From an uncultured Clostridia bacterium (GTDB lineage: Bacteria; Bacillota; Clostridia; Christensenellales; Borkfalkiaceae): a stretch of DNA of 64,000 bases. Below, one piece after another: positions 34,804-49,746 of this stretch. A program made the position numbers and the translations under genes. The DNA is taken from positions 164 through 64,163 of the forward strand of contig CAYXWN010000004.1 in the NCBI GenBank assembly GCA_964468815.1. Reading direction: 5' to 3'. The first letter of the stretch is position 1. Each line of letters opens with the position of its first letter. The notes beneath the pieces were generated by a model. That model saw only the letters and a list, made by a program, of their open reading frames with translations. It had not been told where the DNA came from and did not search any database.

Positions 34804-35808
34804 TTATTTCGGCGACGCAACCGATTTACGAATCACGATTTCCGTTTCGTATTTTTCAAACGTTCCTATTACGTTATTTTCAATACTGTGCGAAAGGATA
34901 TCGAAAACCTTTCGCCCGTATGCGTTTTTATCATAAGTTACGGTAGTCAGCGCGGGACTTACGAAATTAGAATACAATATATCATCAAAGCCGACGACCG
35001 AAACGTCTTCGGGAACGCGGATTCCGCGTTTTTGCAACTCGCTTAACGCACCGTACGCCATTAAGTCGTTCGTCGTAATGATTGCAGTGGCTTTACAACC
35101 GCTCTCTATCAACTTCGCCGTAAGTTGCATACCTGTTTGAACGGAAGTGTCATACGGATATTCGTTATCGATCACCGTACCTTCCTTGCCCATAAGATTC
35201 CTGTATTCGTCCTTAAACGCCTTATACCGTAAGTCTACCGTATCTTCCCTCAACCCGGAAAGATACGCAATATCGGTATGCCCGACCGATTTTAAATAAG
35301 CGATCAGTTTGCGCATACCTTGTGCCATGTCGATTTCGACACAGCCGTATCCCAATTTAAAATTATCGAATTTGTTACCCGTCACGACCTTTATTCCGTT
35401 TTTCGTAAATTTGTCGATAACGTTCGATACTACGTCGGAATTGATAAGCGAAATATACACGCCGTCAATTCTCCGTGAAATAAGATCGGCAACTTGATTG
35501 CGGAAGCCGTTCATCGCGTCCGCAAAATACACGGCATAGCCTGCCTGCGACGCGCTTTCTTGAAACCCGTGGAATATTTCGCCGAAAATCGGGTTGGATA
35601 CGTCGTTAACTAAGATTGCAACCGTGTACGTTTTCTTTTTCGTCATACTCTTTGCAATCATGTCGGGCTTATATCCGTATTGCTCGACCACGGACAATAC
35701 TCTTTGCGTCACCTCATCGGAAAACTTTCTGCTATTGTTTAAGATATAAGAAACCGTTTGCTCCGACACTCCGGCTATTTTTGCTATATCTTTTCTGGAT
35801 ATGCGCAT
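34804..35808 (-). CDS. LacI-family transcriptional regulator
   Basis: N-terminal HTH ([23 protein letters not shown]) plus a periplasmic-binding-protein-like sugar sensor domain. The ATG at 35808 is preferred over the GTG at 35823. Confidence 0.9.
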
Positions 35809-35872
35809 ACTTCCTTTCCCCACAAACTATATCGTCTACTTTCTTTTTCTGCCGTTTTTTGATTCCGTTTCA

Positions 35873-36140: not shown

Positions 36141-36172
36141 AAAACAGAGGCAAGGCCTTTTGCCCTTGCCTC
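36141..36172 (-). terminator. Rho-independent terminator of the alpha-glucan operon
   Basis: In minus sense: GAGGCAAGG-gcaaaagg-CCTTGCCTC followed by TGTTTTA. It lies about 30 nt after the stop at 36204. Confidence 0.7.
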
Positions 36173-36203: not shown

Positions 36204-38099
36204 TTATCTAGCGCGCTTTTTTCCGAAAACGAACGCTGCCGCCACCAAAAGAACGATTGCGCCAACCGCAAACGAAGCGTCTAACGAAGAACCGCAACCC
36301 GGCTTTTCCGCAACGATTACCTTTACGGTGTACTCATTGCCGTTATAGGTAATTTTTACGGTCTGCTCGCCGGACGTCGCTTTGTCGTAATCGGAAACCG
36401 TAAAGTCTGCCGCGGATACGCTAACGTTCTCGCTCTCTTTTCCGCTTGCGTACTTTTTAACCACCTTGATCGTGGAAAGATCGAAATCCTCGTTATACTC
36501 GTATTCCGCCTTGGTTACGCTTACTTCGTAGGACTCTACGTCCGCAACCTCTACTTCAAAGGTCGCCGTAACGTTCTGATTCAATACCGTCTTCGTTACG
36601 GATACCGTTTGCTTGCCAACCGTGTTTTTGTCAAATCCGTTTACGGTTAAATCCGCGAGCGTCAACGTTTCCGTCGTTCCGTCCATATACGTAAGTTCAA
36701 AAGAACCGCCGCTCAATTCTTCGCCGTAACTCACGTTTGCAGGAGCGGTCGTAACCGTCAAACCGGACGCGTAATTCGCAACCTCCGTATCCGAAACGAT
36801 ATACCATTTCATATTGCTGATAACCGTTTCGCCGTTGGTTCTGTCACCGAAGGAGAATACGGGGACGTATTCGTCGGGTAAAATTTCCTTATCGACAACG
36901 GAAGCCCATACTTTACCGTCAACGGTCAATTTCGCGCTTACTTTTTTGCCGCTGTATTCGACTTTTACTTTATACGAACCGCCTGCGGGGAATGCCGTTC
37001 CGGAAACGGGAAGTTCGTGACAAATTACTTCTGTGTAGTTACCTACTTCATCGCAACGTTGGAACAAATAGCACGTTCCCGCACCGCCGGACATACCTGC
37101 GCGGAAATGGAACTCATACGTATCAATTCCGTTCTTTGCAAAGACGAGGAACGGAACAGTCCAAGATCCCGTCGTTCCCGGGGTAATCGTCGCTTCCATA
37201 CCGAAGGTCAATTCGTTGACAGCCTTCTCACTACCGTCTGCAAAACGAACCTTACCGTCCGTTACGCTGCTGACAACGGTGGGAATGTATACGCGGGAAT
37301 CGTCACCGTACAGCATGACCTCGCCCGTTTCTGCGTCATAGAAGTTCTTTCCCCAATCGGTTGCACCGAAATTCAAAAGGTTGGTGTATTCGGGTTCGGG
37401 AATTACCACAACGCCCTCTTTAACGTAGAAGCGCATGTTACTGAATTCAGCATCTTTGATCTTTCTGTCGCCAAGTCCGAACACGGGCGTGTAGCCGTCC
37501 GGCAAATCGATTTGAACGTTCGATACGTCAAGACGCGTCGTCGTACCGTTTACGAGAATCTTAACGGAAACGGTCTTTGCCTTATATTCCATATGAATGG
37601 TATAAGAATCGCCGACCGCGATAGGAGCATTGTTTCCGCCAAACTCTTTTACCGTTCCCTTATCCAGATCCCCTTCTCTCGCAAACGCATATACGCTGCC
37701 GACTCCGTTACGGTCATGCAACTCATATGCTACGTCTCCGTCTTGCGCGAAGATCAAGAAAGGTACTTGCCACGTAGCGACCGCAGCAGGCTTTACGGTT
37801 ACCTCAGCCACGAAGGTAACTTCATCTACCCCCTTCGTAGAGCCGTCGGTAAACTCCAACTGCGTATCCGCCGCGATGGGCAGAAGTGTTTGGAAATACA
37901 AACGAACGTCGTCGCCTGCCATTTTCAGCGTACCGGTTTCGGCGTTGTACGTATGATTCCCATAATTGGTCTTTCCGAAATCCAAAAGATTTTGGATTTC
38001 GGATTCGACAGTCGAATCCGCCGCAAATGCAGGACAGACTGCCAGTGCCGTCGTAACGACGAGTGCAAAGGTCAACATCATGATTAAAATTTTTTTCAT
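36204..38099 (-). CDS. Secreted protein with duplicated ~205-aa beta-sandwich module, Ig-like domains and a C-terminal G-C-G-S + TM + basic-cluster signal
   Basis: 631 aa. Signal peptide ...AVCPAFA/AD. Two internal repeats (NLLDFGKTNYGNHTYNAETG... and NLLNFGATDWGKNFYDAETG...). Ig-like strands (GKQTVSVTK, GEQTVKITYNG). The C-terminus is EKPGCGSSLDASFAVGAIVLLVAAAFVFGKKRAR. Confidence 0.8.
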   Translation of the reverse strand: MKKILIMMLTFALVVTTALAVCPAFAADSTVESEIQNLLDFGKTNYGNHTYNAETGTLKMAGDDVRLYFQTLLPIAADTQLEFTDGSTKGVDEVTFVAEVTVKPAAVATWQVPFLIFAQDGDVAYELHDRNGVGSVYAFAREGDLDKGTVKEFGGNNAPIAVGDSYTIHMEYKAKTVSVKILVNGTTTRLDVSNVQIDLPDGYTPVFGLGDRKIKDAEFSNMRFYVKEGVVVIPEPEYTNLLNFGATDWGKNFYDAETGEVMLYGDDSRVYIPTVVSSVTDGKVRFADGSEKAVNELTFGMEATITPGTTGSWTVPFLVFAKNGIDTYEFHFRAGMSGGAGTCYLFQRCDEVGNYTEVICHELPVSGTAFPAGGSYKVKVEYSGKKVSAKLTVDGKVWASVVDKEILPDEYVPVFSFGDRTNGETVISNMKWYIVSDTEVANYASGLTVTTAPANVSYGEELSGGSFELTYMDGTTETLTLADLTVNGFDKNTVGKQTVSVTKTVLNQNVTATFEVEVADVESYEVSVTKAEYEYNEDFDLSTIKVVKKYASGKESENVSVSAADFTVSDYDKATSGEQTVKITYNGNEYTVKVIVAEKPGCGSSLDASFAVGAIVLLVAAAFVFGKKRAR

Positions 38100-38120
38100 T
38101 TTAACCCCTCCTAAAAAATT

Positions 38121-39032
38121 TCAGATGAATTTATTCCATACCGCCAACGCGATAAATGTCACAATACAAAGAACGTACGTAAGAATCGAATTTCGATCCA
38201 AGCGCGGTTCTTCTTTTGCAAACTTAACGCGAAGCGGCTTGAATAACAGAATTGCGCAGGCAAGCGACGCAAACGTCACCGCACCGCAAAACAGGGCGCA
38301 TAAAAGCGCGGTTTCCCTCGACGTTACCCCGTACGCAGACAGAGGCAACACCCAATACGAGGGAATAATTACTTGCAGACATTCAAAGATAACTGCAAAG
38401 AGAAAGGGAAACACCGCTCGATCGGTCGCCGCGTAAATCAAACTTGCAACTACGCCAAGCAGCAACAATCGCAAAAAGATGGAAGAGTCGTAACACACGA
38501 GCGCGGATAAAACGCAAGGCAATAAATATCCGACAAAGGAATTACCGTATGCGATTTTCCCAAGATAGCGAAATACGTATTCCCGTAAAAGGGTAACGAT
38601 CACGCCGTTTACCAATAAGGATAAAACAAGTTGCCACGCACTCGGTCGAACGGGCATGGAAAGAGAAATTCCTCCCGTGATCGCAGAGCGAAAGCCTGCA
38701 ACCGTGTACGATAAATAGGTATACAACAACCACGCAGTCATTGCGAGTAAGATTACGAAAACGAATTGTTTTTTCTCTATCGGCGCAGGCGAATCTCTAT
38801 ACGTCGATTCCGTCCCAGAATATTTTTTCTCGGTGTGCACCAGCACTACCGTCGGAATCGCAAACACGACAAACGGTTGTAAGCCGTACAGCAAAATCAC
38901 CGACCACAATTCGCTCGCAAATTTTGCAATTACCAACGAATAGAGAAACCCGATGAGCAACATATAAAAAGTCGCAATCTGAAAGGACGTTTTCCTTATA
39001 CGCAAGTCGGGATCAAACAGAATATTTTTCAT
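38121..39032 (-). CDS. Polytopic membrane protein (~9 TM), CPBP/Abi-like fold with degenerate catalytic motifs
   Basis: 303 aa. The segment TLLREYVFRYLG ... SALVCY ... GVVASLIYAATDRAVFPFLFAVIFECLQ follows the spacing of the CPBP motifs (EExxxR, FxxxH, HxxxN). The first Glu is Arg and both His are missing. Confidence 0.6.
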   Translation of the reverse strand: MKNILFDPDLRIRKTSFQIATFYMLLIGFLYSLVIAKFASELWSVILLYGLQPFVVFAIPTVVLVHTEKKYSGTESTYRDSPAPIEKKQFVFVILLAMTAWLLYTYLSYTVAGFRSAITGGISLSMPVRPSAWQLVLSLLVNGVIVTLLREYVFRYLGKIAYGNSFVGYLLPCVLSALVCYDSSIFLRLLLLGVVASLIYAATDRAVFPFLFAVIFECLQVIIPSYWVLPLSAYGVTSRETALLCALFCGAVTFASLACAILLFKPLRVKFAKEEPRLDRNSILTYVLCIVTFIALAVWNKFI

Positions 39033-39891
39033 AGATCCCCCATAAATAACTTTTTATTTCTTCGCGATCCAACAGCGCGAAGTAGGTTGACTTGCCGTTC
39101 ACGGTGCTTCTCTTTTCTTTCCGTCCGATTCGGTAATAAACCGTCGGTTTCAATTCGCAAAAAGGTTCTGCGCGAAACGCTTCCCGTCCGGTAAACGTAC
39201 AATTCAGCGTAATTTCTTCCCCCGCGCGCAAAATCACTTCGTCGTTCCATTCTCCGTAAACGTAATCGGCATCGTAATATCCCGTACTTTGCTCCATTCC
39301 TTGGAGTTGAACGGACAATCCCGTAATGAATACGTCCGTCTCTCCGTTGTTGATGATTTTTACGTTGTAACTGTTCAGTTCGGAGGCGTTTTGCGTATAC
39401 CCCGAATAAGACAGCACGTCGTCATCGTCCCCGACGGTAAGATCGAGATAAACCCGACCGATCGGAAAACTTTTCTCCGTTCCGTCCGATAAAACCAGAA
39501 CGGCTTGCGTGAGTGTTGCTGTGTATTCGGTAAAGTCATTTCGGTCCAACACGCAAACGATACGATAACTTGCAAAATAAAAATCAGAAAAGATCACCTG
39601 CAAACTCATATCTTTTAAAGAATACGGCTTTCCGTCTTGATCGCGCAAATACATTTCCTTGCTCGCCAGAAAGGACAGTCCGCCTTTCACCTCGTATACT
39701 TGCAAGGTGAAGTAGGGGTTGTACGCCTTTTCGGAAAAGGAAAGAGAATGTTCGTGATCGGCAAAGTATACCCCTGCGGGCGGAAAAGAACGCTTTTCCG
39801 CAAACATAACGCACACTCCCGAAACCGAAAAGGCGATACACGCCACTACGCAAATTGCAATTGCCGTAAGAAACCCGGGCAACTTTTTCAT
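39013..39891 (-). CDS. Single-pass (N-terminal anchor) extracytoplasmic protein, unknown function
   Basis: 292 aa with N-terminal TM FLTAIAICVVACIAFSVSGVCVMF. A 20-bp overlap with the downstream membrane-protein gene suggests translational coupling. Confidence 0.7.
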   Translation of the reverse strand: MKKLPGFLTAIAICVVACIAFSVSGVCVMFAEKRSFPPAGVYFADHEHSLSFSEKAYNPYFTLQVYEVKGGLSFLASKEMYLRDQDGKPYSLKDMSLQVIFSDFYFASYRIVCVLDRNDFTEYTATLTQAVLVLSDGTEKSFPIGRVYLDLTVGDDDDVLSYSGYTQNASELNSYNVKIINNGETDVFITGLSVQLQGMEQSTGYYDADYVYGEWNDEVILRAGEEITLNCTFTGREAFRAEPFCELKPTVYYRIGRKEKRSTVNGKSTYFALLDREEIKSYLWGIYEKYSV

Positions 39892-39902
39892 GCTGCACTC
39901 CG

Positions 39903-42900
39903 TTAAATCGAAACGTTTTCTATTTTTTCCTCTGCGCCAAGTCCGTACACGAACACGTCGCTGATTCTCGTACGTGCATTGACCGCTTCAAACGCGAACG
40001 CACCGCCGCGCGCAATGGTATCCGTATACGTGAGAACGGGCTTACCGCTCAAATCGGGACGGGCAGACGCGTTTGCAAATACGCGAACGGTCTTGTTTTG
40101 TACCGCTACCGTCAAATACATTTTACCTACCGCAAACTCGCTCGAAAGTTTATGTGAAGCAACGATTTCCCCGTCTATTTCCACAAACAACTCCTTAGAG
40201 AGCGTCATACCGATTTTCATGATACCGTCGCAATTTTCGCCGTAACCGACCGAACCGCCGAACACGAATGCAAAGTAAATATCCGAACTCGGTTGACTGC
40301 GCTGGAATTGCGACACTTTGAAAGAAACCAAGCAATCGGTAACGCCGTTTGAAAGAACGTACATTTCCGAATTGGGATTATAGATCTCCCCGGACGAAAC
40401 GCTCACTCCGCCGTATACGGGATAATCGTCCGAATAACTTTGACATTGATAATTGCATAAGCGGATCGCCGCTTTATGCGTTTGCCAACGAGGTGCTCCG
40501 CTCGTCGCGGTAAAACCAGAAACCGTAATAACCGTTTCGGCAAGTCCGCCGATCGAAACGGTTAACACCTTGCTATCCGTATATTGTACGAAGATTCGGG
40601 TATCCTTTTCTTTATCGTAATCGGGAATCGTATATTCTTTTACCGCGCTTCCGTTTTGATAAAGTGCAAGTTTTCCGTTCGGATAGAGGCGTACCGAGTT
40701 GTTCTCAGAACCGCCGAACACGAACGCCGCATACGAATCCGCCGACGATTTTACAAACTGTACCATATAGTCCGAACGGAAATAAGTAAATGTCTGCCCT
40801 GCGCGCAACGTTGCCGTTTCCGCATTTGCGTCACTTTGCAACAATCCGCCGTTGGTCATCTTCCAATTACCGCCCGAAACCGAATAGCCGACTACACCGT
40901 ATTCGCCGAAATTAATATTATTGAGCGAGAGAACGCCCTGCCCTGCGTGCGCCGACAAACTGTGTCCGTCGTTTACCGCATCGCCAAAGCAATAATATTC
41001 AAACGTCGCCTCGCCTTTCCCCACGTTGCATACACCGGCGTTCATATCCGAAAAGTTTGCAATCAAATGGCTGCCTAACGTTTGGAACGAACCGTTTACG
41101 GTCTTATACCGTGCTACCCAATTCGCGCCCGTACGTTCGATTTGGAATACAAGTTCACCGCTTACGTCGGGAAGAGAACCGTTCAACATCAACGATCCGT
41201 TTTCCACTAAGCCGAACGCAAGTTTTACGCCGCCGTCCAAATAGGCTCTGCCTGCAAACAAATAACTGTTTGCCGTTTGATAGACAACAACGCCCATCAA
41301 ATCACCGACTTGCTTGGGAGAACCGCTCATCTGCGCTTTTACCGTAAAGTCGCGCATTTGCGCATGCGTTAAGGCAAATACGCCCGTTTCGCTTGCCGCA
41401 AGTTTCAACTTGCCGTTCGCGATGCTCGCTTTTTCTGCTTCTCCCGCATAGAACGTCATCGAATCGGTCGCTTTATCGAACTGCGTGCTGCGTTGATTTT
41501 CTTCCGCGTTCATCGTGAGTACGACGTTTTTCGCCTTTCCCTCACCGTTCACGCCGCCGATTGCAGCGACTCCCTCGTACGACATTTCCACGTAACATTC
41601 GCTGTTCGCTTGTTTTGTTCCGTCTAACGTCACGTAGAAGAGATTATCGTTACTTCTTACAAGTTCGATCTTCTGTCCTGCTTTTATCGTCAACGTAGCC
41701 ACCGTTTTTTCCGTACCGCCGGCACTCTCGCGCGCCTTCACTACTAACTGCGTTCCGCCGATCTCCGCGCCGTAATACGCCGCGTCCGCTTTCTTGCCTG
41801 CGCGCAACGCCGCCAATACGTTCCCTTCCGCGACAAGCGAAAGTCTTGCATTGTTATAGATCGGCAAGGTTGCGAACGAGCCGCTTCCCTCTACCGTCAA
41901 CTCGTCTACGTTCGTCTGACGGATTACGCCGCCCTCTCCGTTTACTTGCCATTTCCCTGCCCAAGCGTTGGACGCTTTATTGGTAAGCAACGCGCCGTAC
42001 GGCATTACGTCGATCGTAATTTTTCCGTCTTGCACGGTATAAGAATTTCCCGAAAGATAATCGTAAATCTTCTCGCCGTTTTTCACTTCCATCGTGTGAA
42101 CGTCAAGTTCTAAGCCCTTGCAGACGTTCCCCGTTGGATTTAAGATCGTCAAAATGGACGTTCCTTGATACGAACGCTGGTATTTTAATAAAAGATTCGT
42201 TTCGTCTACACCCAGTTTGCGAATGATTCCGTACTTAAATAAATCTTTATTCTCTGCACGAAATTGTCCGAGTGCTTTATATAAGTTAAAAATATCGTAG
42301 TTCCAAGTCGTTCTGTCCCAATTCATGGACTCGAAAAAGGAATGGTCGTACCGACTTGTCATTCCGATTTCCTCCCCGTAGAAAAGGGAGGGTGCGCCCA
42401 TATACGTCATCAATAACAGATGAACGGACGTCGCCTTGCTTACATTTCCGTTGGCTGCGTTTTCGTCAAGTAAACGCATCGTATCATGGTCTGCGGAAAT
42501 CGTGTAAAGCGACAATCCCGTTGCGCGCGGCAACGTCGCTACCGTGTTAAAGCAATTTTCTTCCAAACTAGCCAAGGTGTCCGCGGAAACTTGCGCCGAC
42601 GCAAATCTGCGAACGCCTGCTAAAAATTCTTGACTCCAATAGGTATCCGCCGCATAATCAGTGTACATGGTAGAGGCCGACGCGTTTTCAATACACAGCA
42701 AGGAATCGGGCGCAACCTCTTTCATATACTTACGCATATCCTGAATAACCTTCGTTCCGTTGGTATTCGTTCCTCCGAACAGAACGGAGGAATCCAAACG
42801 CCAACCGTCCAAGCCGAATTCCGTCAAATAATACTGCATGACCGAATCGGGAGAAGAGTAAACTAAACGTTGCGAAGTTGCCTTTCCCAAATCAATAATC

Positions 42901-43946
42901 GGGCCGAACTGATTGGACTGAATTTTCCCGTTTTGATCGCGCGCAAATACCGAATAATACGGAGAAGAGAGATTTTCGGCATTTTCGGTAAACCAAGTGT
43001 TTCCCCCGTTTACGTAAATGGAATTGGTTACCAAAAACGCAAACACGCCGTCCATCATGAATTTCATATCGTTCGCGTGCAATTCGTCCGTTAAGATACG
43101 CAACATTTCTTCGCTTCCGAACGTAGAATCCAAATTCGTGAGATCGAACGCGCCGTATCCGGCATTGTGATTTGCAAGCCAAATGGGATTGATGTAAACC
43201 CCGTCTATGTTCAACTCATTGAAAAAATCGATTTTTTCGTACAATCCCTTCAAGTCTCCGCCGAAATAATCCAAGCCGCCGGTGTGCGTGAGCCCCCAAA
43301 CGTCTTGAGTGATTCCTCCGCCGTACTTATCCGAGAACGTTTCTCCGTTGAAAAAACTATCCGGCATGGCGGAATACCACAACGCGCCCTTAGACCAATC
43401 GGGTGTGGAGAAGTTGATTTGCGACAAAAAATCATGAGAGAGAGTTTCGGGAAACCCCGTTTCGCTCTCCTTGCTCTGCTGCATATTGTAACAAACAGAG
43501 CCTACGTTGTTTTTCACAACGAAGTGGTAACGGTACGAGGTACTTTGCGGAGGGACTTCGCATTTATAATAATCGTAGTAGCCGTTTACGTCCGCATAGT
43601 CGAATTCCATGGGAACGTCGTTCCAAGCACATTCTTCCGCACTCGCCTTGCTCAAATCCGTTGTGTAACGCAAGGTTACTTCCGTCGCGTTTTTACGACG
43701 AACACGTAACCGCATTGTAACGGTATCGGTATCTTTCGGTTCGATATGCGAAACGTACACGTCCCCGATATCGTGGAATATTTCACCCGTAACGATCGGC
43801 TCGTCTACAAGGGATACGGCATCGTCCGTCTGTGTTCCGCCGCAACCGATCACGCATAAACTCGCGCACAAAAATACGCAAACCGAGCATACAATCAATA
43901 ATAAGTTTTTCGCTTTATAAAACATCGCGTTTTCCCCTTTTCGCAT
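39903..43946 (-). CDS. Surface lipoprotein alpha-amylase-family enzyme (GH13, neopullulanase/cyclomaltodextrinase-like N-terminal half) with ~650-aa C-terminal extension (copy A)
   Basis: Lipobox VIGC. GH13 regions seen: DGVFAF, DGWRLDS, CIEN and SADHD. The C-terminal half consists of LamG/jelly-roll-like modules. The start codon ATG at 43946 overlaps the upstream stop (TAATG); the ATG at 43925 is an alternative. Confidence 0.88.
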   Translation of the reverse strand: MRKGENAMFYKAKNLLLIVCSVCVFLCASLCVIGCGGTQTDDAVSLVDEPIVTGEIFHDIGDVYVSHIEPKDTDTVTMRLRVRRKNATEVTLRYTTDLSKASAEECAWNDVPMEFDYADVNGYYDYYKCEVPPQSTSYRYHFVVKNNVGSVCYNMQQSKESETGFPETLSHDFLSQINFSTPDWSKGALWYSAMPDSFFNGETFSDKYGGGITQDVWGLTHTGGLDYFGGDLKGLYEKIDFFNELNIDGVYINPIWLANHNAGYGAFDLTNLDSTFGSEEMLRILTDELHANDMKFMMDGVFAFLVTNSIYVNGGNTWFTENAENLSSPYYSVFARDQNGKIQSNQFGPIIDLGKATSQRLVYSSPDSVMQYYLTEFGLDGWRLDSSVLFGGTNTNGTKVIQDMRKYMKEVAPDSLLCIENASASTMYTDYAADTYWSQEFLAGVRRFASAQVSADTLASLEENCFNTVATLPRATGLSLYTISADHDTMRLLDENAANGNVSKATSVHLLLMTYMGAPSLFYGEEIGMTSRYDHSFFESMNWDRTTWNYDIFNLYKALGQFRAENKDLFKYGIIRKLGVDETNLLLKYQRSYQGTSILTILNPTGNVCKGLELDVHTMEVKNGEKIYDYLSGNSYTVQDGKITIDVMPYGALLTNKASNAWAGKWQVNGEGGVIRQTNVDELTVEGSGSFATLPIYNNARLSLVAEGNVLAALRAGKKADAAYYGAEIGGTQLVVKARESAGGTEKTVATLTIKAGQKIELVRSNDNLFYVTLDGTKQANSECYVEMSYEGVAAIGGVNGEGKAKNVVLTMNAEENQRSTQFDKATDSMTFYAGEAEKASIANGKLKLAASETGVFALTHAQMRDFTVKAQMSGSPKQVGDLMGVVVYQTANSYLFAGRAYLDGGVKLAFGLVENGSLMLNGSLPDVSGELVFQIERTGANWVARYKTVNGSFQTLGSHLIANFSDMNAGVCNVGKGEATFEYYCFGDAVNDGHSLSAHAGQGVLSLNNINFGEYGVVGYSVSGGNWKMTNGGLLQSDANAETATLRAGQTFTYFRSDYMVQFVKSSADSYAAFVFGGSENNSVRLYPNGKLALYQNGSAVKEYTIPDYDKEKDTRIFVQYTDSKVLTVSIGGLAETVITVSGFTATSGAPRWQTHKAAIRLCNYQCQSYSDDYPVYGGVSVSSGEIYNPNSEMYVLSNGVTDCLVSFKVSQFQRSQPSSDIYFAFVFGGSVGYGENCDGIMKIGMTLSKELFVEIDGEIVASHKLSSEFAVGKMYLTVAVQNKTVRVFANASARPDLSGKPVLTYTDTIARGGAFAFEAVNARTRISDVFVYGLGAEEKIENVSI
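41277..42118. repeat. 842-bp segment 100% identical to 45266-46107 (copy A side)
   Basis: Compared line by line at a constant offset of 3989, with no mismatch seen. The first mismatches are at 41276/45265 and 42119/46108. Confidence 0.93.
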
Positions 43947-46900
43947 TAAGCGAATTTACGGTTTTGATAAACCGCGGTCGATTCATAGTTTTCGCTTTCT
44001 CTCATTCCGTACACGTTAAAATCGGAATGTTCAAATCTGCCGTTTACGCCGTATACGCTTACTAAGCCGCCGCAAGCACACTTCGTATCATATTCCACGA
44101 CGGGATTTGCCGAGAACGTGCCGTCGTTCGCTTGATCGACGAACAGTTTTATCGTTCCGTCCTGCACGACCAAAGTCAAGTATACGGTAACGTTTTTGTA
44201 GGCAGATCCAAGATTTACGCTAGCAAGTTTTTCTCCGTTGTACGAAATGTACGCTTCTTGACGGGAACTAATCCCTGCAAAGTATGCGTCCTTTACACCG
44301 CCGTTAGACGAACCGCCGAACGCAAACCCGAGTTCCGCTCTGTTCAAAATATTCGTCTGTTGAATCGTGGTAATCTTCAACGTTGCCACGAACTCCGTCG
44401 CGTATGCAAGATTATGAGAAGCCGTATAACTTTGGAACTGCATATCCGCGATTTTATAAGAAGCCTTACTTCCCTCGATATAAACCGCGCCGACTTGATA
44501 ATCGGTGAGCACCGTGTGGAAGATCAATTCCATTTCCGTCCCTACGTAAACGGACAGTCTGCCGCTATCGGTCATAACCGCAATGATACGCAAAGGTTGT
44601 TCGGTTACGTTCTGCACGGTATGGCTTCCTAAGGATTTCGTTCCGTTCAGCAATTCGATCTTTCCGCTTTGTTCGAAGCGCAGAGAATAATCTCCGCCGA
44701 ACCGCAAAGCAACGTTGCCGCCCTGTCCTGCTTTATAAATCACGACCGAATAGTCTGCTCTGAACCCCTTAAAAGAGCCTTGCGTGTTTTTCAACGTCGT
44801 TGTTGCCGCCGTTTCGTCACTCTGCAAGAAGCCTCCCTGCACCATTTCCCAAGTGCCGCCTTCCGTCCGATACGCCACAACCGAATACGAGCCGGACTGC
44901 CCCGACCAACGGTTGACGTTACCGTATCCTGCATGTGCAGACAAACTGTGTCCGTCGTTTACCGCGTCGCCGAAGCAATAATATTCAAACGTTGCTTCAC
45001 CCGTCCCCAAATTGAACACACCTGCGTTCATATCCGAAAAGTTCGCGCACAAGCCCTCTGCCAACAAAGTAAAGGATTCTTGTTCGGGCGTTTTATATCT
45101 CGCCGTCCAATAAGCGCCGAGTCTTTCCAGCTGTATCACGATATCGCCGCTTACGTCTGTCTCTTCGGCAAATATCGTAACTTGTCCGTTCACGGATTGT
45201 CCCAAAACGAGTTTCACGCTTCCGTCTAAATAGGCTCTGCCTGCAAACACGTAATTATTTGCCGATTGATAGACAACAACGCCCATCAAATCACCGACTT
45301 GCTTGGGAGAACCGCTCATCTGCGCTTTTACCGTAAAGTCGCGCATTTGCGCATGCGTTAAGGCAAATACGCCCGTTTCGCTTGCCGCAAGTTTCAACTT
45401 GCCGTTCGCGATGCTCGCTTTTTCTGCTTCTCCCGCATAGAACGTCATCGAATCGGTCGCTTTATCGAACTGCGTGCTGCGTTGATTTTCTTCCGCGTTC
45501 ATCGTGAGTACGACGTTTTTCGCCTTTCCCTCACCGTTCACGCCGCCGATTGCAGCGACTCCCTCGTACGACATTTCCACGTAACATTCGCTGTTCGCTT
45601 GTTTTGTTCCGTCTAACGTCACGTAGAAGAGATTATCGTTACTTCTTACAAGTTCGATCTTCTGTCCTGCTTTTATCGTCAACGTAGCCACCGTTTTTTC
45701 CGTACCGCCGGCACTCTCGCGCGCCTTCACTACTAACTGCGTTCCGCCGATCTCCGCGCCGTAATACGCCGCGTCCGCTTTCTTGCCTGCGCGCAACGCC
45801 GCCAATACGTTCCCTTCCGCGACAAGCGAAAGTCTTGCATTGTTATAGATCGGCAAGGTTGCGAACGAGCCGCTTCCCTCTACCGTCAACTCGTCTACGT
45901 TCGTCTGACGGATTACGCCGCCCTCTCCGTTTACTTGCCATTTCCCTGCCCAAGCGTTGGACGCTTTATTGGTAAGCAACGCGCCGTACGGCATTACGTC
46001 GATCGTAATTTTTCCGTCTTGCACGGTATAAGAATTTCCCGAAAGATAATCGTAAATCTTCTCGCCGTTTTTCACTTCCATCGTGTGAACGTCAAGTTCT
46101 AAGCCCTGACATACGTCGCCGTTGGGGTTTAAGATCGTCAAAATGGACGTTCCTTGATACGCACGTTGATATTTTAACAAGAGATTTTCTTCGTCTACAC
46201 CCAAAGCGCGAAGCGTGCCGTACTTGAACACTCCTTCGTTTTCGCTACGGAACTGTCCCAACGATTTGATCATGTTAAAAATATCGTAATTATAGGTGCT
46301 TCTATCCCAATTCATTCCAACAAAGAAGCGGTTCACGTCCAGCGTGCCGGTTTCTTCCCCGTAGAAAATAGTGGGAGAGCCCATGTACGTCATTACCATT
46401 AAATACAACGACTGCGCTTTTTGAACGTCACCGTCCATCAATTCCAAAATACGGGAACAGTCGTGATTGGTCAGCATATTATAACTGGAATGCGCTACCG
46501 AACGCGGAAGTCCCAACACGGCTTCGTACAGATTGGAAGAAAGCAAATTCAACGTGGATTTGTTGATTTTTCCGTCCATAAACGCTTCTACCGCTTTTAA
46601 GAACCGTTGATTCCAATAGGTATCCGCCGCATAATTGGTATACATACCTGCTTCGTTTGCATTTTCCAAGCAAAGTAACGAATCGGGAGCGACTTCTTTC
46701 ATATACTTACGCATATCTTGAATCATCTGCGTACCCGTTCTGCCATCGGATGCAACGAATAAAATAGCAGAGTCCAAACGCCACCCGTCTACCCCACATT
46801 CGGTCACGTAATATTGCATGATGGAATCGGGTGTAGAATAAATCAACTTTTGCGCTTCCTCGCTTGCAAAGTCTACCACGTATCCGAATTGGTTCGTCTG

Positions 46901-47950
46901 CAAATTACCTTGCGTATCGCGCATGAATACACTGTAATAATCATTTTCCGAACCTCTTCCCTCGGTGGGCCAAAGGTTGGAAGAATTTACGTATTTGGAA
47001 TTTCCTACGAAATAATTGAATACGCCGTCGAACATCAGCCGCATATTGTTGTTATGCAATTCTTCGGTCAGTTTTTTCAGCATTTGCTCGTTACCGAAAG
47101 TAGAGTCAAGCAACGTGCCGTCGAAAAATCCGTAGCCTGCGTTATGATTGGCAAGCCATACGGGATTGATAAAGAGCGCCGTACAATTAAGTTCTTTCAA
47201 ATAATCAATTTGATCGTACAATCCTTGCATATCGCCGCCGAAATATCCCAAACCGCCGGAATGAACCGTTCCCCACGGAGTCTGCGAAATCGCGCCGCCG
47301 TATTTATCCCCCGTCGGATCGGAATTGTAAAAACTGTCCGGCATAGCGGAATACCACAACGCGCCCTTAGACCAATCGGGTGTGGAAAAATTAACCTGCA
47401 AGAGGAAATCCTTGCTGAATCCGTTAAACGGATTGATATAATTCCCACTAGAATCCTTTGTCGTAAGTTCGATATCTCTGCCTGCGTAAAACGCCGTTTG
47501 CTTGTTGTTCGACACAACGAAGTGATAGCGATATGCCGAAGGCTGCGCGGGAATCACTCCCTTATAATAATCGTAATACTTGTTTACGTCAGCCTTTTCA
47601 AAGGTAAGAGGCGCGCTCTTCCATTCGATTCCGTCGCCGCTAACCTTGTCAAGGTCGGTCGTCCACTCAACGGTCACGTTCGTCACGTTTCCGCGGCGAA
47701 CGCGTAACCGCACGGTAACGTCCTCTTGATCCGTCGGTTCAAAAGTAGAAAGATACACGTCGCCTTGATCGTGAAAAATTTCTTCCGTTATAAGATTTTC
47801 GTTAACCAATTCGTCCGACGGTTGCTCGGTTACCTCGCCGCCCTCTCCGTTATTGCACCCGATCAAGCCAACCGCCGCGCAAAACAACACGAATGAAAAC
47901 AATAATAACAAAAATCCTCTGATTGATTGATAAGTTTTTGCAGTTTTCAA
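43946..47950 (-). CDS. Surface lipoprotein GH13 enzyme with long C-terminal extension (copy B)
   Basis: 1334 aa from a TTG start at 47950 preceded by AGGAGGGG. Lipobox LIGC. GH13 regions seen: DGVFNY, DGWRLDS, CLEN and TNHD. Confidence 0.88.
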   Translation of the reverse strand: MKTAKTYQSIRGFLLLLFSFVLFCAAVGLIGCNNGEGGEVTEQPSDELVNENLITEEIFHDQGDVYLSTFEPTDQEDVTVRLRVRRGNVTNVTVEWTTDLDKVSGDGIEWKSAPLTFEKADVNKYYDYYKGVIPAQPSAYRYHFVVSNNKQTAFYAGRDIELTTKDSSGNYINPFNGFSKDFLLQVNFSTPDWSKGALWYSAMPDSFYNSDPTGDKYGGAISQTPWGTVHSGGLGYFGGDMQGLYDQIDYLKELNCTALFINPVWLANHNAGYGFFDGTLLDSTFGNEQMLKKLTEELHNNNMRLMFDGVFNYFVGNSKYVNSSNLWPTEGRGSENDYYSVFMRDTQGNLQTNQFGYVVDFASEEAQKLIYSTPDSIMQYYVTECGVDGWRLDSAILFVASDGRTGTQMIQDMRKYMKEVAPDSLLCLENANEAGMYTNYAADTYWNQRFLKAVEAFMDGKINKSTLNLLSSNLYEAVLGLPRSVAHSSYNMLTNHDCSRILELMDGDVQKAQSLYLMVMTYMGSPTIFYGEETGTLDVNRFFVGMNWDRSTYNYDIFNMIKSLGQFRSENEGVFKYGTLRALGVDEENLLLKYQRAYQGTSILTILNPNGDVCQGLELDVHTMEVKNGEKIYDYLSGNSYTVQDGKITIDVMPYGALLTNKASNAWAGKWQVNGEGGVIRQTNVDELTVEGSGSFATLPIYNNARLSLVAEGNVLAALRAGKKADAAYYGAEIGGTQLVVKARESAGGTEKTVATLTIKAGQKIELVRSNDNLFYVTLDGTKQANSECYVEMSYEGVAAIGGVNGEGKAKNVVLTMNAEENQRSTQFDKATDSMTFYAGEAEKASIANGKLKLAASETGVFALTHAQMRDFTVKAQMSGSPKQVGDLMGVVVYQSANNYVFAGRAYLDGSVKLVLGQSVNGQVTIFAEETDVSGDIVIQLERLGAYWTARYKTPEQESFTLLAEGLCANFSDMNAGVFNLGTGEATFEYYCFGDAVNDGHSLSAHAGYGNVNRWSGQSGSYSVVAYRTEGGTWEMVQGGFLQSDETAATTTLKNTQGSFKGFRADYSVVIYKAGQGGNVALRFGGDYSLRFEQSGKIELLNGTKSLGSHTVQNVTEQPLRIIAVMTDSGRLSVYVGTEMELIFHTVLTDYQVGAVYIEGSKASYKIADMQFQSYTASHNLAYATEFVATLKITTIQQTNILNRAELGFAFGGSSNGGVKDAYFAGISSRQEAYISYNGEKLASVNLGSAYKNVTVYLTLVVQDGTIKLFVDQANDGTFSANPVVEYDTKCACGGLVSVYGVNGRFEHSDFNVYGMRESENYESTAVYQNRKFA
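45266..46107. repeat. 842-bp segment 100% identical to 41277-42118 (copy B side)
   Basis: Same comparison as for 41277-42118. The block is in frame in both genes. Confidence 0.93.
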
Positions 47951-47977: not shown

Positions 47978-48838
47978 TTACCCTTTTACCGCGCCTGCCG
48001 CTACGCCGTTCAAAAAGTATTTCGAGAAGAACGAATAGATCAGCAAGATCGGAATACACATGATGACGAGTCCTGCACACAAAACGCCGTACATCGAACC
48101 GTTTTGCGCCTGAAAATTAATTAGTGCAAGCGGTAACGTTTGCGCCTTTGCGTTGGTCGGCAACACAATAAAAGGCCAAAAGAAATCATTCCAATAAGAA
48201 GTAAAGGTCGTAATCGCTACGTACGACAGTACGGGTTTGATCAAAACGAAATCGATATGGAAGAAAATTTGCCACACCGTCGCCCCGTCCAAACTTGCCG
48301 CCTCATGCAAATCGTTCGGAATATTTTTTACGTAAGTAACGCCTAAAAACACTCCCGTACCAGAAATCGCAATCATCGCCGGCAATAACAACGCCCACAG
48401 CGAATCGATCAATCCGAGTTCGCGCATCATCAAAAACAACGGGATTGTCGTTACTTCGCCGCTGATAAACATCGTAAACAACAGCATGTAGAATATAATC
48501 GCCGATCCCTTGTACTTCAACACGCCGATCGCAAAGATCGTGAGCGCCGTGGTAAAAGTTTGGACCACGACCGCTGCCGCCGATACGGTAAAGCTGTTGA
48601 TTACGTTGGTGGAAAACCCTCCTTTCACCCACGCGTCCGAATAATTTTCGGGGTGGGCGAAAGAAAGGGAAAAAGGAGATTTTATGAATTCCCCACGCGT
48701 TTTGAACGACGTACTCAAAACGAACAATAGCGGATATAAAATAGCGATTGTAATAAGCGTTATAATGATTCCGAGGATAATATTAACGATCAGATCGATG
48801 CGTTTTTGTCTTGTAAGGCTCGCTTCTTTCTCACTCAT
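47978..48838 (-). CDS. Carbohydrate ABC transporter permease (MalG-like)
   Basis: 286 aa. The EAA loop is HEAASLDGATVWQIFFHIDFVLIKP. Confidence 0.9.
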   Translation of the reverse strand: MSEKEASLTRQKRIDLIVNIILGIIITLITIAILYPLLFVLSTSFKTRGEFIKSPFSLSFAHPENYSDAWVKGGFSTNVINSFTVSAAAVVVQTFTTALTIFAIGVLKYKGSAIIFYMLLFTMFISGEVTTIPLFLMMRELGLIDSLWALLLPAMIAISGTGVFLGVTYVKNIPNDLHEAASLDGATVWQIFFHIDFVLIKPVLSYVAITTFTSYWNDFFWPFIVLPTNAKAQTLPLALINFQAQNGSMYGVLCAGLVIMCIPILLIYSFFSKYFLNGVAAGAVKG

Positions 48839-49730
48839 AAATACTTTCCACCTTTGCCATTAACTTGTTCGTAACCACCGTAAACGCTCCTAAAATAATC
48901 GATAACATAAAGGACATTACGATTGCCCACCCCATGCGGTTCATTTTAAACGCATAGTTATAGATAATCAAACCGACCGGTCTTGTTTCCGGCATAGTAC
49001 CGCCTTCCAACATAAAGAACATATCGAAAGATTTCATTCCGCCGACAAACGAAAGGACCAAATTCATTTTGGTTGCCGAAATCGTCAACGGAAAAATAAA
49101 ACGCCACAAAATCGTCCAGCGGTTTGCCCCGTCTATGGTTGCTCCTTCCAAAACCTCTTTGGAAACGGCGTTCATATTAACGAAGTATAAAACCATGGTA
49201 ACGCCTACAAAACGCCACGTGTTTGCGATAATGATAGACCAAAACGCAATATTCGGATCGTTCAGCCAAAGAACCTGCTCCCAGCCGAGTAATCCCCAAA
49301 TTTTTGCAAGCAAACCGACGTCGTATTCATAGATAAAACGCCACATGACGGCAACGACCGTACTCGGTAAAACGCACGGAATGTACAACAAAACTCTGTA
49401 CACCGATTGTAAGCGTTTTCCCATGGAATACAACAGATATGCAAGGAAAAAGCCTAAAACCGTTTGGAGAAGGGTAGAAATAAAGGAAAATTTCCCGGCA
49501 ACCCAAATTCCGTTCCAAAAATCGCCTGCATATTCCGAAAACAGCCACACGTAATTTTGAAAACTATTCCATTTCAAATTGGTAACGGTACCGCGTATTC
49601 CCGTAAAACTCAAAAAAAACGAAAACACAATCGGATATGCAATTAAACAGAGCACGCTGACGATCGCAGGAATGGACATAACCCATCCGTAAATCGTCCG
49701 TTGCCTATTGAAAGCCTTCGTATTTAACAT
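48831..49730 (-). CDS. Carbohydrate ABC transporter permease (MalF-like)
   Basis: About 299 aa from the ATG at 49730, preceded by GAGAGGA. The EAA loop is LEGATIDGANRWTILWRFIFPL. It has an 8-bp overlap with the next gene. Confidence 0.9.
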   Translation of the reverse strand: MLNTKAFNRQRTIYGWVMSIPAIVSVLCLIAYPIVFSFFLSFTGIRGTVTNLKWNSFQNYVWLFSEYAGDFWNGIWVAGKFSFISTLLQTVLGFFLAYLLYSMGKRLQSVYRVLLYIPCVLPSTVVAVMWRFIYEYDVGLLAKIWGLLGWEQVLWLNDPNIAFWSIIIANTWRFVGVTMVLYFVNMNAVSKEVLEGATIDGANRWTILWRFIFPLTISATKMNLVLSFVGGMKSFDMFFMLEGGTMPETRPVGLIIYNYAFKMNRMGWAIVMSFMLSIILGAFTVVTNKLMAKVESIYE

Positions 49731-49746
49731 CGAGTCCTCTCTTTCT

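What the first reader, a model, noticed from the sequence alone, without database searches (positions are those of the whole stretch)
36204..39891. Candidate undescribed C-terminal protein-sorting module: G-C-G-S + TM + basic tail substrate next to a CPBP-like membrane protein
The last gene of the alpha-glucan operon encodes a 631-aa secreted protein whose final 34 residues are EKPGCGSS-LDASFAVGAIVLLVAAAFVF-GKKRAR. This is a short motif with an invariant-looking Cys, then a TM helix, then a basic cluster.

That tripartite layout is the hallmark of dedicated sorting signals. Examples are LPXTG/sortase, PEP-CTERM/exosortase, and especially the Cys-containing MYXO-CTERM and Synerg-CTERM signals, which are processed by CPBP-family intramembrane proteases.

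Immediately upstream lie a 292-aa single-pass protein and a 303-aa ~9-TM protein, which overlap by 20 bp and are probably translationally coupled. The core of the 303-aa protein (LLREYVFRYLG ... SALVCY ... GVVASLIYAATDRAVFPFLFAVIFECLQ) follows the CPBP motif spacing. It lacks the first Glu and both His, so it may be a divergent enzyme, a pseudo-enzyme or something unrelated.

The 1026-aa protein at 58126-61206 also carries G-S-G-C just before its TM helix and basic cluster.
Basis: partly seen in the sequence, partly recalled or inferred. Interest (0 to 1): 0.7.

Follow-up and report, generated by a model that had tools for sequence, protein, structure and literature searches.

The report
Surface-protein tail with pseudo-protease partner
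In a starch-utilisation operon of an uncultured gut Clostridia lineage, a secreted surface protein ends in a conserved Gly-Cys motif, a membrane helix and a basic tail, and it always sits next to a very divergent relative of the CAAX/CPBP membrane proteases that has lost the usual catalytic residues, so this looks like a new, narrow variant of the cysteine-tail sorting systems but more probably a docking device than a cutting one.

Summary
All on the minus strand, GH13-GH13, a 292-aa single-pass protein, a 303-aa roughly 9-TM protein and a 631-aa Big_3 protein form one tight operon. The 631-aa protein ends in EKPGCGSS + TM + GKKRAR.

G-C-[GKS]-[SG] is invariant in about seven lineages and one paralogue (45-79% identity), while the TM helix diverges. 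It is the only Cys conserved in the family.

The 303-aa family is tiny: 3 clusters among 1.84 billion representatives, and one species genome. It is always in this operon.

Its CPBP/Rce1 similarity is weak but consistent:
- Pfam PF02517 in 2 of 6 members (E 0.003 and 0.0095, below threshold).
- hhalign against eight genuine CPBPs: E 8e-5, against scores of 10-21 for shuffles.
- Top rank among 503 local ORFs.
- MmRce1 is the best TM-score match.

The canonical catalytic set is replaced: EExxxR becomes RExxFR, FxxxH becomes SxxxC/S, and HxxxN becomes AxxxE.

No known sorting-signal model covers the motif. No non-homologous client was found.

Most likely this is a clade-specific Cys-tail module whose CPBP-fold partner is a non-canonical, probably non-proteolytic, tail receptor or scaffold. 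A true sorting protease remains possible.

The 1026-aa protein is not a second client.

The parts
36204..38099 (-). 631-aa secreted surface protein. It has a signal peptide, two ~200-aa N-terminal repeats of unknown fold, two Big_3 Ig-like domains and a Cys-containing tripartite C-terminal tail.
   Evidence: ORF. Big_3 PF07523, E 3.3e-12. Homologues P0004-P0010.
38022..38099 (-). Signal peptide, residues 1-26, with predicted SPase I site AFA|AD.
   Evidence: Read from the sequence. Hydrophobic segment 4-22. A Cys in the signal peptide is not conserved among homologues, so this is not a lipoprotein signal.
36288..36299 (-). G601-C602-G603-S604 signature motif, directly after the last Big_3 strand (..VKVIVAEKP).
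   Evidence: G-C is invariant and positions 3-4 are [GKS][SG] in 8 of 8 homologue tails. It is the only conserved Cys.
36222..36278 (-). C-terminal transmembrane helix, residues 608-626.
   Evidence: Kyte-Doolittle mean 2.45. It matches the TM-plus-basic part of the LPXTG, NPXTG and PEF-CTERM models only.
36207..36221 (-). Basic cluster KKRAR at the extreme C-terminus (cytoplasmic stop-transfer).
   Evidence: Sequence. K/R clusters are present in all homologues.
36148..36165 (-). Terminator-like hairpin plus T-run that ends the operon.
38121..39032 (-). 303-aa polytopic (~9 helix) membrane protein. It belongs to an orphan family with remote CPBP/Rce1-like similarity and a replaced catalytic set.
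   Evidence: Helices. Family size. CPBP evidence.
38364..38657 (-). CPBP-like core, residues ~126-223. R150-E151-x-x-F154-R155 stands in for EExxFR, S176..C180 (Y181 D182) for FxxxH, and A213..E217 (Q220) for HxxxN.
   Evidence: hhalign alignments. Pfam PF02517 covers residues 133-216 of two members, profile positions 2-90 of 93. Invariant columns.
39013..39891 (-). 292-aa single-pass (N-terminal TM 11-29) protein with a ~260-aa extracytoplasmic domain. Its stop overlaps the 303-aa start by 20 bp.
   Evidence: The overlap is conserved in relatives. No family match, only faint Ig-like or beta-sandwich hints. Invariant residues include H46, C113, D116, R117 and C231.
39903..47950 (-). Context: two tandem GH13 alpha-amylase-family lipoproteins (1347 and 1334 aa) in the same operon, preceded by an ABC sugar importer (47978-51243).

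Best explanation
This is a clade-restricted, three-gene surface-anchoring module at the end of an alpha-glucan utilisation operon.

The 631-aa protein is exported by Sec. It stays in the membrane through its C-terminal helix and cytoplasmic KKRAR cluster. This presents an invariant, unpaired Cys in a G-C-G-S motif at the outer membrane face.

The 303-aa protein is a very divergent CPBP/Rce1-fold membrane protein. Its canonical glutamic-protease residues have been replaced: E to R150, H to C/S180, H to A/S213 and N to E217. It is made by translational coupling with a 292-aa single-pass protein that carries extracytoplasmic beta-rich domains.

I infer that the 303/292 pair is a dedicated intramembrane receptor, scaffold or chaperone for the Cys-proximal tail, which may be lipid-modified. 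It would use the lipid-Cys-binding cavity of the CPBP fold without canonical proteolysis, as SpdC, LnsB and APH-1 do. This would hold the glucan-binding protein next to the lipoprotein amylases and the ABC importer.

Shown: gene structure, tail conservation, synteny, remote CPBP similarity and loss of the catalytic residues.

Inferred: physical interaction, Cys modification and absence of cleavage.
For: Tail:
- G-C is invariant in 8 of 8 homologues at 45-79% identity, while the TM helix drifts.
- It is the only conserved Cys, so it has no intramolecular disulfide partner.
- The architecture equals that of Cys-containing sorting signals described by Haft (bioRxiv 10.1101/2023.06.07.544157).

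Linkage:
- The order 292-303-tail protein, the 20-bp overlap and the short gaps are kept in all ~6-7 lineages.
- One species has two tail-bearing paralogues in the same locus as one 292/303 pair.

CPBP fold:
- PF02517 is the only recurrent Pfam hit. It scores E 0.0028 and 0.0095 and covers nearly the full domain at residues 133-216.
- NCBIfam MroQ hits the same region.
- hhalign against 8 genuine CPBPs gives probability 43-61% and E 8e-5 to 2.4e-4, against scores of 10-21 and probability <=1.2% for 22 reversed or shuffled controls.
- A CPBP HMM ranks family members 1st, 2nd and 5th among 503 local ORFs.
- MmRce1 4cad_C has the highest TM-score and probability in Foldseek.
- Genuine CPBPs themselves reach only 24.6 bits against Rce1.

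Non-catalytic reading:
- The replaced residues are invariant or nearly so in the family.
- There are precedents for CPBP-fold proteins without catalytic residues that act as scaffolds or chaperones with a single-pass or second partner: SpdC-SagB (bioRxiv 10.1101/2020.05.21.109470), and LnsB and APH-1 (PMC7387801).
Against: - Every CPBP signal is sub-threshold on its own. The window's own protein gets no Pfam hit, the family profile finds nothing in PDB sequences, and no Foldseek match is significant on a pLDDT 59.6 model.
- No direct evidence links the tail to the 303/292 pair beyond synteny inside one orthologous operon.
- Invariant polar residues in the core (E151, D182, R188, R205, E217, Q220, E240) could equally form a new active site.
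- The 292-aa protein has no recognisable fold or function.
- No lipidation machinery was identified.
Confidence: 0.4

Rival explanations
1. This is a dedicated sorting and processing system. The Cys is modified, and the 303-aa protein, alone or with the 292-aa protein, cleaves the tail just after it. The mature protein would then be anchored by the modification or handed to the wall. This is analogous to the JDVT-CTERM/MrtJ single-client pairs, but with a reinvented active site (E151, D182, E217).
For: All four known Cys-containing C-terminal signals pair with CPBP enzymes, and JDVT-CTERM clients are adjacent to theirs in 16 of 17 cases. Here there is the same adjacency plus a CPBP-like fold. 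Invariant acidic and polar residues sit at or next to the lost catalytic positions. MrtX cleavage needs the motif Cys (PMC11980579).
Against: The first Glu of EExxxR, both His and the Asn are all replaced in every lineage. In MrtX and MmRce1 a motif-1 Glu and the motif-2 His hold the catalytic water, and the HxxxN motif forms the oxyanion hole. I know of no CPBP protease that works without them. The tail was found only on homologues of one protein.
Confidence: 0.2
2. The tail is only a C-terminal stop-transfer anchor with a conserved juxtamembrane linker. The 292/303 pair serves another role in the glucan locus, such as substrate sensing, envelope remodelling or amylase lipoprotein handling, and does not recognise the tail.
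For: The sorting-signal HMMs match only the generic TM-plus-basic part. No unrelated client was found. All co-occurrence is explained by inheritance of one operon in one small clade. The two GH13 lipoproteins in the same operon are alternative partners for a lipid-Cys-binding CPBP fold. That would be analogous to LnsB acting on lipoproteins.
Against: A neutral linker would not keep an unpaired Cys in eight diverged sequences and in a paralogue whose surrounding residues differ. It would also be a coincidence for a Cys-tripartite tail to lie beside a CPBP-like protein, which is the pairing seen in every known Cys-tail system.
Confidence: 0.3
3. The apparent CPBP similarity is a compositional artefact of hydrophobic helices. 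The 303-aa protein is then an unrelated orphan membrane protein such as a transporter or permease.
For: All scores are below curated thresholds. Foldseek gives no significant hit, and a nucleotide-sugar transporter is nominally rank 1 by E-value.
Against: Shuffled and reversed controls never exceed score 21, against 36-39 for the real comparison. Other polytopic proteins in the window and loci do not score. The match covers the full Pfam domain in register with the F-R of motif 1. 4cad has by far the best TM-score, 0.33/0.37, where other matches score 0.26 or less.
Confidence: 0.1

Closest known systems
JDVT-CTERM / MrtJ dedicated pairs (Haft 2023, bioRxiv 10.1101/2023.06.07.544157)
   Same: Both have a tripartite C-terminal signal with a single invariant Cys. 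There are one or two clients per genome. The client gene is adjacent to a CPBP-family membrane protein.
   Different: MrtJ keeps the canonical CPBP motifs and is found in Proteobacteria (diderms). JDVT tails carry a conserved DP in the helix and sit on unrelated proteins. Here the partner has lost the catalytic set, a third single-pass protein is coupled to it, the host is a Clostridia lineage, and the clients are all homologous.
MYXO-CTERM / myxosortase MrtX (PMC11980579)
   Same: Both have a G-C-G-type motif followed by a TM helix and a basic tail. In MrtX the Cys is required for cleavage, and the proposed mechanism is Cys lipidation followed by CPBP recognition.
   Different: MrtX is a housekeeping enzyme with dozens of clients and an intact E/H/H/N set, and export continues through T2SS across an outer membrane. 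The MYXO-CTERM model gives only E 7.6 on one tail here.
SpdC-SagB of Staphylococcus aureus (bioRxiv 10.1101/2020.05.21.109470)
   Same: A CPBP/Rce1-fold polytopic protein acts non-catalytically as a scaffold for a single-pass membrane protein that works on a glycan at the cell surface.
   Different: SpdC is readily recognisable as CPBP and works in peptidoglycan release. No Cys tail is involved. The partner genes are not in one operon with a tail-anchored client.
LnsA/LnsB lipoprotein N-acylation system (PMC7387801)
   Same: It is a two-component system in a Firmicute, in which a remote CPBP homologue lacking catalytic motifs is needed to act on a lipid-modified Cys of surface proteins.
   Different: LnsA is an NlpC/P60 enzyme, and the 292-aa protein shows no such similarity. 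Its substrates are N-terminal lipoprotein Cys residues, and its genes are unlinked.
LPXTG / NPXTG sortase signals of Firmicutes
   Same: Both have a C-terminal TM helix plus a K/R cluster on a secreted multidomain surface protein. The TIGR01167 and Rumino_NPXTG models align to that part.
   Different: There is no LPXTG- or NPXTG-like pentapeptide; a Gly-Cys motif stands in its place. No sortase gene is in the locus.

Membership tests
CPBP / Rce1-like glutamic intramembrane endopeptidases (Pfam PF02517) | Sequence match to the family HMM above the curated threshold | tested here: not met
   The window protein gets no Pfam hit. The best family members score 18.3 and 16.6 bits against a cut-off of 22.4. 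NCBIfam MroQ gives 9.2 bits against a cut-off of 270.
CPBP / Rce1-like glutamic intramembrane endopeptidases (Pfam PF02517) | Homologous core (TM4-TM7) detectable by profile-profile or fold comparison | tested here: inconclusive
   hhalign gives probability 43-61% and E 8e-5 to 2.4e-4, with controls at <=1.2%. Family members rank top among 503 ORFs. Foldseek gives 4cad_C the best TM-score, 0.33/0.37, but E 0.41 on a pLDDT 59.6 model. The result leans positive but is not decisive.
CPBP / Rce1-like glutamic intramembrane endopeptidases (Pfam PF02517) | Motif 1, EExxxR, including the catalytic first Glu | tested here: not met
   It aligns to R150-E151-Y-V-F154-R155, and R150 is invariant in 6 lineages.
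CPBP / Rce1-like glutamic intramembrane endopeptidases (Pfam PF02517) | Motif 2, FxxxH | tested here: not met
   It aligns to S176-x-x-x-C180, where position 180 is Ser in one lineage. Invariant Y181-D182 follow.
CPBP / Rce1-like glutamic intramembrane endopeptidases (Pfam PF02517) | Motif 3, HxxxN/D (oxyanion hole) | tested here: not met
   It aligns to A213 (Ser in one lineage)-x-x-x-E217, and Q220 is invariant.
Cys-containing C-terminal sorting signals (MYXO-, JDVT-, Synerg-, CGP-CTERM) | Tripartite architecture at the extreme C-terminus with an invariant Cys in the signature motif | tested here: met
   G-C-[GKS]-[SG], then a ~19-aa helix and a K/R cluster within the last 34-40 residues in 8 of 8 homologues.
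Cys-containing C-terminal sorting signals (MYXO-, JDVT-, Synerg-, CGP-CTERM) | Match to one of the curated NCBIfam models | tested here: not met
   The only trace is TIGR03382 at E 7.6 on one tail. There are no JDVT, Synerg or CGP hits.
Cys-containing C-terminal sorting signals (MYXO-, JDVT-, Synerg-, CGP-CTERM) | The domain is shared by proteins with no other homology | tested here: inconclusive
   Only orthologues and one paralogue carry it. No other ORF in the window and the loci L001-L009 has it. The tail-only database search could not reach significance. Whole genomes were not available.
Cys-containing C-terminal sorting signals (MYXO-, JDVT-, Synerg-, CGP-CTERM) | A cognate CPBP enzyme with intact catalytic motifs co-occurs | tested here: not met
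   The adjacent CPBP-like protein lacks the motifs. The presence of another CPBP elsewhere in the genome could not be checked.
Cys-containing C-terminal sorting signals (MYXO-, JDVT-, Synerg-, CGP-CTERM) | Removal of the C-terminal helix and/or Cys lipidation in the mature protein | not testable with these tools
   This needs tagged expression or C-terminal peptide mass spectrometry.
Sortase substrates (LPXTG and variants) | An LPXTG-type pentapeptide before the TM helix and basic tail | tested here: not met
   TIGR01167 aligns only profile positions 8-32 of 34, the helix plus basic part. It scores 15.3-16.7 bits around the 15.9 cut-off. No LPXTG or NPXTG motif is present.
Exosortase / archaeosortase / rhombosortase | HMM similarity of the polytopic partner to these families | tested here: not met
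   No such hit at E <= 10 for any of the six 303-aa family members in Pfam or NCBIfam.
Non-catalytic CPBP-fold scaffolds (SpdC, LnsB, APH-1 type) | CPBP-like fold with the catalytic residues lost | tested here: inconclusive
   The loss of the residues is clear if the alignment is right. The fold assignment itself rests on sub-threshold evidence.
Non-catalytic CPBP-fold scaffolds (SpdC, LnsB, APH-1 type) | A stable complex with a partner membrane protein | not testable with these tools
   Only indirect evidence exists: the conserved 20-bp overlap of the 292 and 303 genes.

The most novel reading that the evidence does not exclude
This would be the first Cys-tail protein-sorting system of monoderm Firmicutes. 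A CPBP-fold protein with a rebuilt active site (R150/E151/D182/E217 instead of E/H/H/N) and a translationally coupled single-pass partner (invariant H46, C113, R117) would together cleave or transfer the G-C-G-S tail of a dedicated glucan-binding surface protein. That would be new catalytic chemistry on the CPBP scaffold and a new way of anchoring proteins to a Gram-positive surface.
Probability: 0.13. Interest if true: 0.8.

Novelty: new variant of a known kind. Interest (0 to 1): 0.45.

Why it matters
Cys-containing C-terminal sorting signals with CPBP partners were defined only recently, and so far in Myxococcota, Proteobacteria, Synergistetes and Thermococcales. One enzyme, MrtX, has been validated experimentally.

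A Clostridia example would address two questions. The first is whether the CPBP fold can serve as a receptor for Cys-proximal membrane tails independently of proteolysis. The second is how gut Firmicutes assemble starch-degrading surface machinery without sortase motifs.

It also adds an orphan family to the growing list of CPBP pseudo-enzymes (SpdC, LnsB, APH-1).

Its reach is limited. The family is confined to a handful of uncultured gut lineages, and all functional links are inferred.

Tried and rejected
1. The first AlphaFold run used only 2 sequences. It gave pLDDT 41 and was unusable. A 4-sequence run gave pLDDT 59.6.

2. The tail-only database search failed. The last protein search yielded nothing.

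3. An L-rich artificial CPBP consensus was masked by BLAST. A less repetitive artificial consensus retrieved real CPBP genes.

4. I considered that P0010/P0015 (734 aa, GGCSG tail) was a lineage that keeps the Cys tail without any 303-aa gene. I rejected this. The end of its locus overlaps L017 at 98.8%, so it is a paralogue in the same locus as a 292/303 pair.

5. The 292-aa protein was tested against Pfam, NCBIfam and PDB sequences, including the idea of a sortase- or NlpC/P60-like enzyme. Nothing came up beyond faint Ig-like hints.

6. The N-terminal repeats of the 631-aa protein show no similarity to the extra C-terminal domains of the GH13 enzymes or to PDB sequences.

7. The 1026-aa protein as a second client was rejected because of its long cytoplasmic extension.

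8. A lipoprotein-type signal for the 631-aa family was rejected because the signal-peptide Cys is not conserved.

Full report
**Observation**

The region contains three minus-strand genes exactly as described:
- 39013-39891 encodes a 292-aa protein.
- 38121-39032 encodes a 303-aa protein.
- 36204-38099 encodes a 631-aa protein.

They close a tightly packed operon. It comprises a sugar-binding protein and two ABC permeases (47978-51243), then two tandem GH13 lipoproteins (43946-47950 and 39903-43946), then the three genes.

- The gaps are 11 nt (GH13 to 292) and 21 nt (303 to 631).
- The 292 and 303 genes overlap by 20 bp.
- A terminator-like hairpin lies about 40 nt after the 631 stop codon.

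The 631-aa protein has an SPase-I-type signal peptide (AFA|AD), two ~200-aa repeats without family assignment, and two Big_3 domains. Its tail is EKPGCGSS / LDASFAVGAIVLLVAAAFVF / GKKRAR.

The 292-aa protein has one N-terminal helix. The 303-aa protein has about nine helices.

**Is the tail motif real?**

Eight homologues of the 631-aa protein were recovered at 45-79% identity, from human-gut metagenomes such as Hadza samples.

- All end in G-C-[GKS]-[SG], then a helix, then a K/R cluster.
- Gly-Cys is invariant, while the helix is only about 34-60% conserved.
- This Cys is the only one conserved in the family. In P0008 it is the only Cys of the mature protein. It therefore has no intramolecular disulfide partner.

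Curated sorting-signal HMMs (LPXTG, Rumino_NPXTG, PEF-CTERM, Loki-CTERM) align only to the helix-plus-basic part. The MYXO-CTERM model gives E 7.6 on one tail.

The tail therefore has the generic build of a sorting signal, but its signature belongs to no catalogued family.

**Distribution and synteny**

The 303-aa family is extremely small.
- An exhaustive HMMER scan of 1.84 billion cluster representatives found 3 clusters.
- A scan of 185,579 species genomes found one locus, a MAG titled uncultured Clostridia bacterium.
- A metagenome scan found six loci.

In every locus the order is GH13-GH13-292-303-tail protein, with the same 20-bp overlap.

I first thought that the 734-aa homologue P0010/P0015 (tail GGCSG) lived without a 303-aa gene. 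That was wrong. The end of its locus (L030) overlaps the start of L017 at 98.8%.

That species therefore carries: LacI - 734 aa (tail) - 470 - 1004 - SBP - permeases - GH13 - GH13 - 292 - 303 - 426 aa (tail). It has two paralogous clients and one 292/303 pair.

All tail-bearing proteins found are homologous to one another. No other ORF in the window and loci L001-L009 carries the tail.

A tail-only search of the protein collection could not work, because of the E-value cap. The classic criterion for a sorting signal, sharing by unrelated proteins, therefore remains untested. Co-occurrence is explained by vertical inheritance of one operon.

**What is the 303-aa protein?**

Direct searches give nothing above threshold.
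- The window protein has no Pfam hit.
- The family profile finds nothing among PDB sequences.

Several independent weak signals nevertheless point to one family.
- *NCBIfam:* MroQ, a CPBP, hits residues 138-223 at E 0.71.
- *Pfam:* PF02517 (Rce1-like) is the only recurrent Pfam hit among six members. It scores E 0.0028 (18.3 bits) and E 0.0095 (16.6 bits) against a threshold of 22.4. It covers profile positions 2-90 of 93 at residues 133-216.
- *Profile-profile:* I retrieved eight genuine, annotated CPBP genes from plasmids with an artificial consensus query. Their profile finds MmRce1 4CAD at E 1.6e-4 and only 24.6 bits, which shows how divergent the superfamily is. hhalign of the 303-aa family against this profile gives probability 43-61%, E 8e-5 to 2.4e-4 and score 36-39 over 75-91 columns. 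Twenty-two reversed, globally shuffled or locally shuffled controls give scores of 10-21 and probability <=1.2%.
- *Local ranking:* An HMM of the eight CPBPs ranks 303-family members 1st, 2nd and 5th among 503 ORFs from the window and loci, which include other polytopic proteins. The alignment runs over residues 31-239.
- *Structure:* A 4-sequence AlphaFold model has pLDDT 59.6 and pTM 0.56. It gives no significant Foldseek match. MmRce1 4cad_C nevertheless has the highest probability (0.57) and the highest TM-scores, 0.33/0.37, where other matches score 0.26 or less.

I conclude that the family is probably a very remote CPBP-fold protein. I put this at roughly 70-75%.

**Catalytic residues**

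In the profile alignments the F-R of motif 1 fixes the register.

| CPBP motif | 303-aa family |
|---|---|
| EExxFR | R150-E151-x-x-F154-R155 |
| FxxxH | S176-x-x-x-C180 (Ser in one lineage), followed by invariant Y181-D182 |
| HxxxN | A213 (Ser in one lineage)-x-x-x-E217, with invariant Q220 |

In MrtX and MmRce1 a Glu and the motif-2 His hold the catalytic water, and the HxxxN motif forms the oxyanion hole (PMC11980579). The register here puts invariant R150 at the first Glu of EExxxR, and both His and the Asn are replaced.

The canonical mechanism is therefore unavailable. The pair of changes Glu to Arg and Asn to Glu could form a salt bridge that fills the site, which is my inference.

CPBP-fold proteins without catalytic residues are known to act non-catalytically.
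- SpdC scaffolds the single-pass hydrolase SagB. Its authors suggest that other bacterial CAAX-protease homologues scaffold membrane proteins.
- LnsB is required, with LnsA, for lipoprotein N-acylation. It is compared to APH-1 of gamma-secretase.

**The 292-aa protein**

It is an orphan. It shows only faint Ig-like or beta-sandwich hints for residues ~168-239.

Its invariant residues include H46, C113, D116, R117 and C231. No enzyme family could be assigned.

**Mechanism**

The pairing seen here is a Cys-containing tripartite tail next to a CPBP-like membrane protein. This is the pairing that characterises all four known Cys-tail systems. The dedicated JDVT-CTERM/MrtJ pairs are likewise adjacent genes. 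That makes a functional link between the tail and the 303/292 pair more likely than not.

Because the catalytic set is gone, I favour a receptor, scaffold or chaperone role for the 303/292 complex (0.40). It would dock the tail, possibly lipid-modified, and position the glucan-binding protein beside the lipoprotein amylases and the importer.

The rivals are:
- a true processing enzyme with a rebuilt active site (0.20);
- a plain membrane anchor, with 292/303 doing something else in the locus, for example acting on the two GH13 lipoproteins (0.30);
- a spurious CPBP resemblance (0.10).

**Comparison with known systems, and novelty**

The module works most like JDVT-CTERM/MrtJ in its architecture and adjacency. 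In the state of its active site it is most like SpdC or LnsB.

It is a member of none of these.
- It fails the HMM thresholds and all three catalytic motifs of CPBP proteases.
- It matches no curated sorting-signal model.
- It lacks any sortase motif.

I rate it a new variant of a known kind. It has a narrow taxonomic reach, and its function is entirely inferred.

**The 1026-aa protein (58126-61206)**

It has a lipoprotein signal. GSGC lies nine residues before a helix and a basic cluster. About 80 further residues of acidic cytoplasmic tail then follow. It is not a C-terminal sorting signal and not evidence for a second client.

Noticed in passing
window 39903-43946 and 43946-47950 (minus strand): The two tandem GH13 lipoprotein paralogues are 59% identical overall, but they share a block of about 280 residues that is 100% identical (about aa 612-890 of the 1347-aa protein). 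The same near-identical block between the two paralogues appears in another species (L030 against L017, 99.2%). Contigs of relatives often break inside these genes. This suggests recurrent gene conversion, although assembly collapse is not excluded.
   Followed up: partly
L030 7783-9987 with L017 6903-8216 (same species): One relative carries two tail-bearing paralogues in one extended locus: a 734-aa protein (tail GGCSG) right after the LacI gene, and a 426-aa protein (tail GCGS) after the 292/303 pair. The window lineage instead has a single 631-aa protein with a duplicated N-terminal domain.
   Followed up: yes
window 58126-61206 (+): This 1026-aa protein has a lipoprotein signal (GLAC|N), a large ectodomain, GSGC nine residues before a TM helix, a basic cluster and then an acidic, T/E-rich cytoplasmic tail of about 80 residues. 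It would thus be anchored at both ends. Conservation of its Cys was not examined.
   Followed up: partly
window 31805-34774 and 34804-35823 (minus strand): A LacI-family regulator and a 989-aa cytoplasmic protein lie directly downstream of the operon terminator. In relatives their homologues (338 aa and 1004 aa) lie upstream of the ABC importer. The locus is therefore rearranged between lineages.
   Followed up: partly
L012 2307-4524: The Logan assembly of one relative has frameshifts in both the 303-aa gene and the tail-protein gene. P0013 (299 aa) ends in out-of-frame sequence, and intact versions exist in L013/L014. These are probably sequencing errors rather than pseudogenes.
   Followed up: partly
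L017 6001-6909, residues 156-190; L021 1610-1813: One 303-aa family member gives a weak DUF4305 hit (E 0.0097). In Listeria a genuine CPBP gene is immediately followed by a DUF4305 gene. This is probably coincidental similarity of a TM hairpin.
   Followed up: no
window 343-945 (+): The 200-aa ORF at the window start ends in a sequence that resembles the C-terminus of an IS3-type transposase (..YYNYERISLKLKGMSPVQYRAQ). That resemblance is from my own knowledge and was not tested.
   Followed up: no
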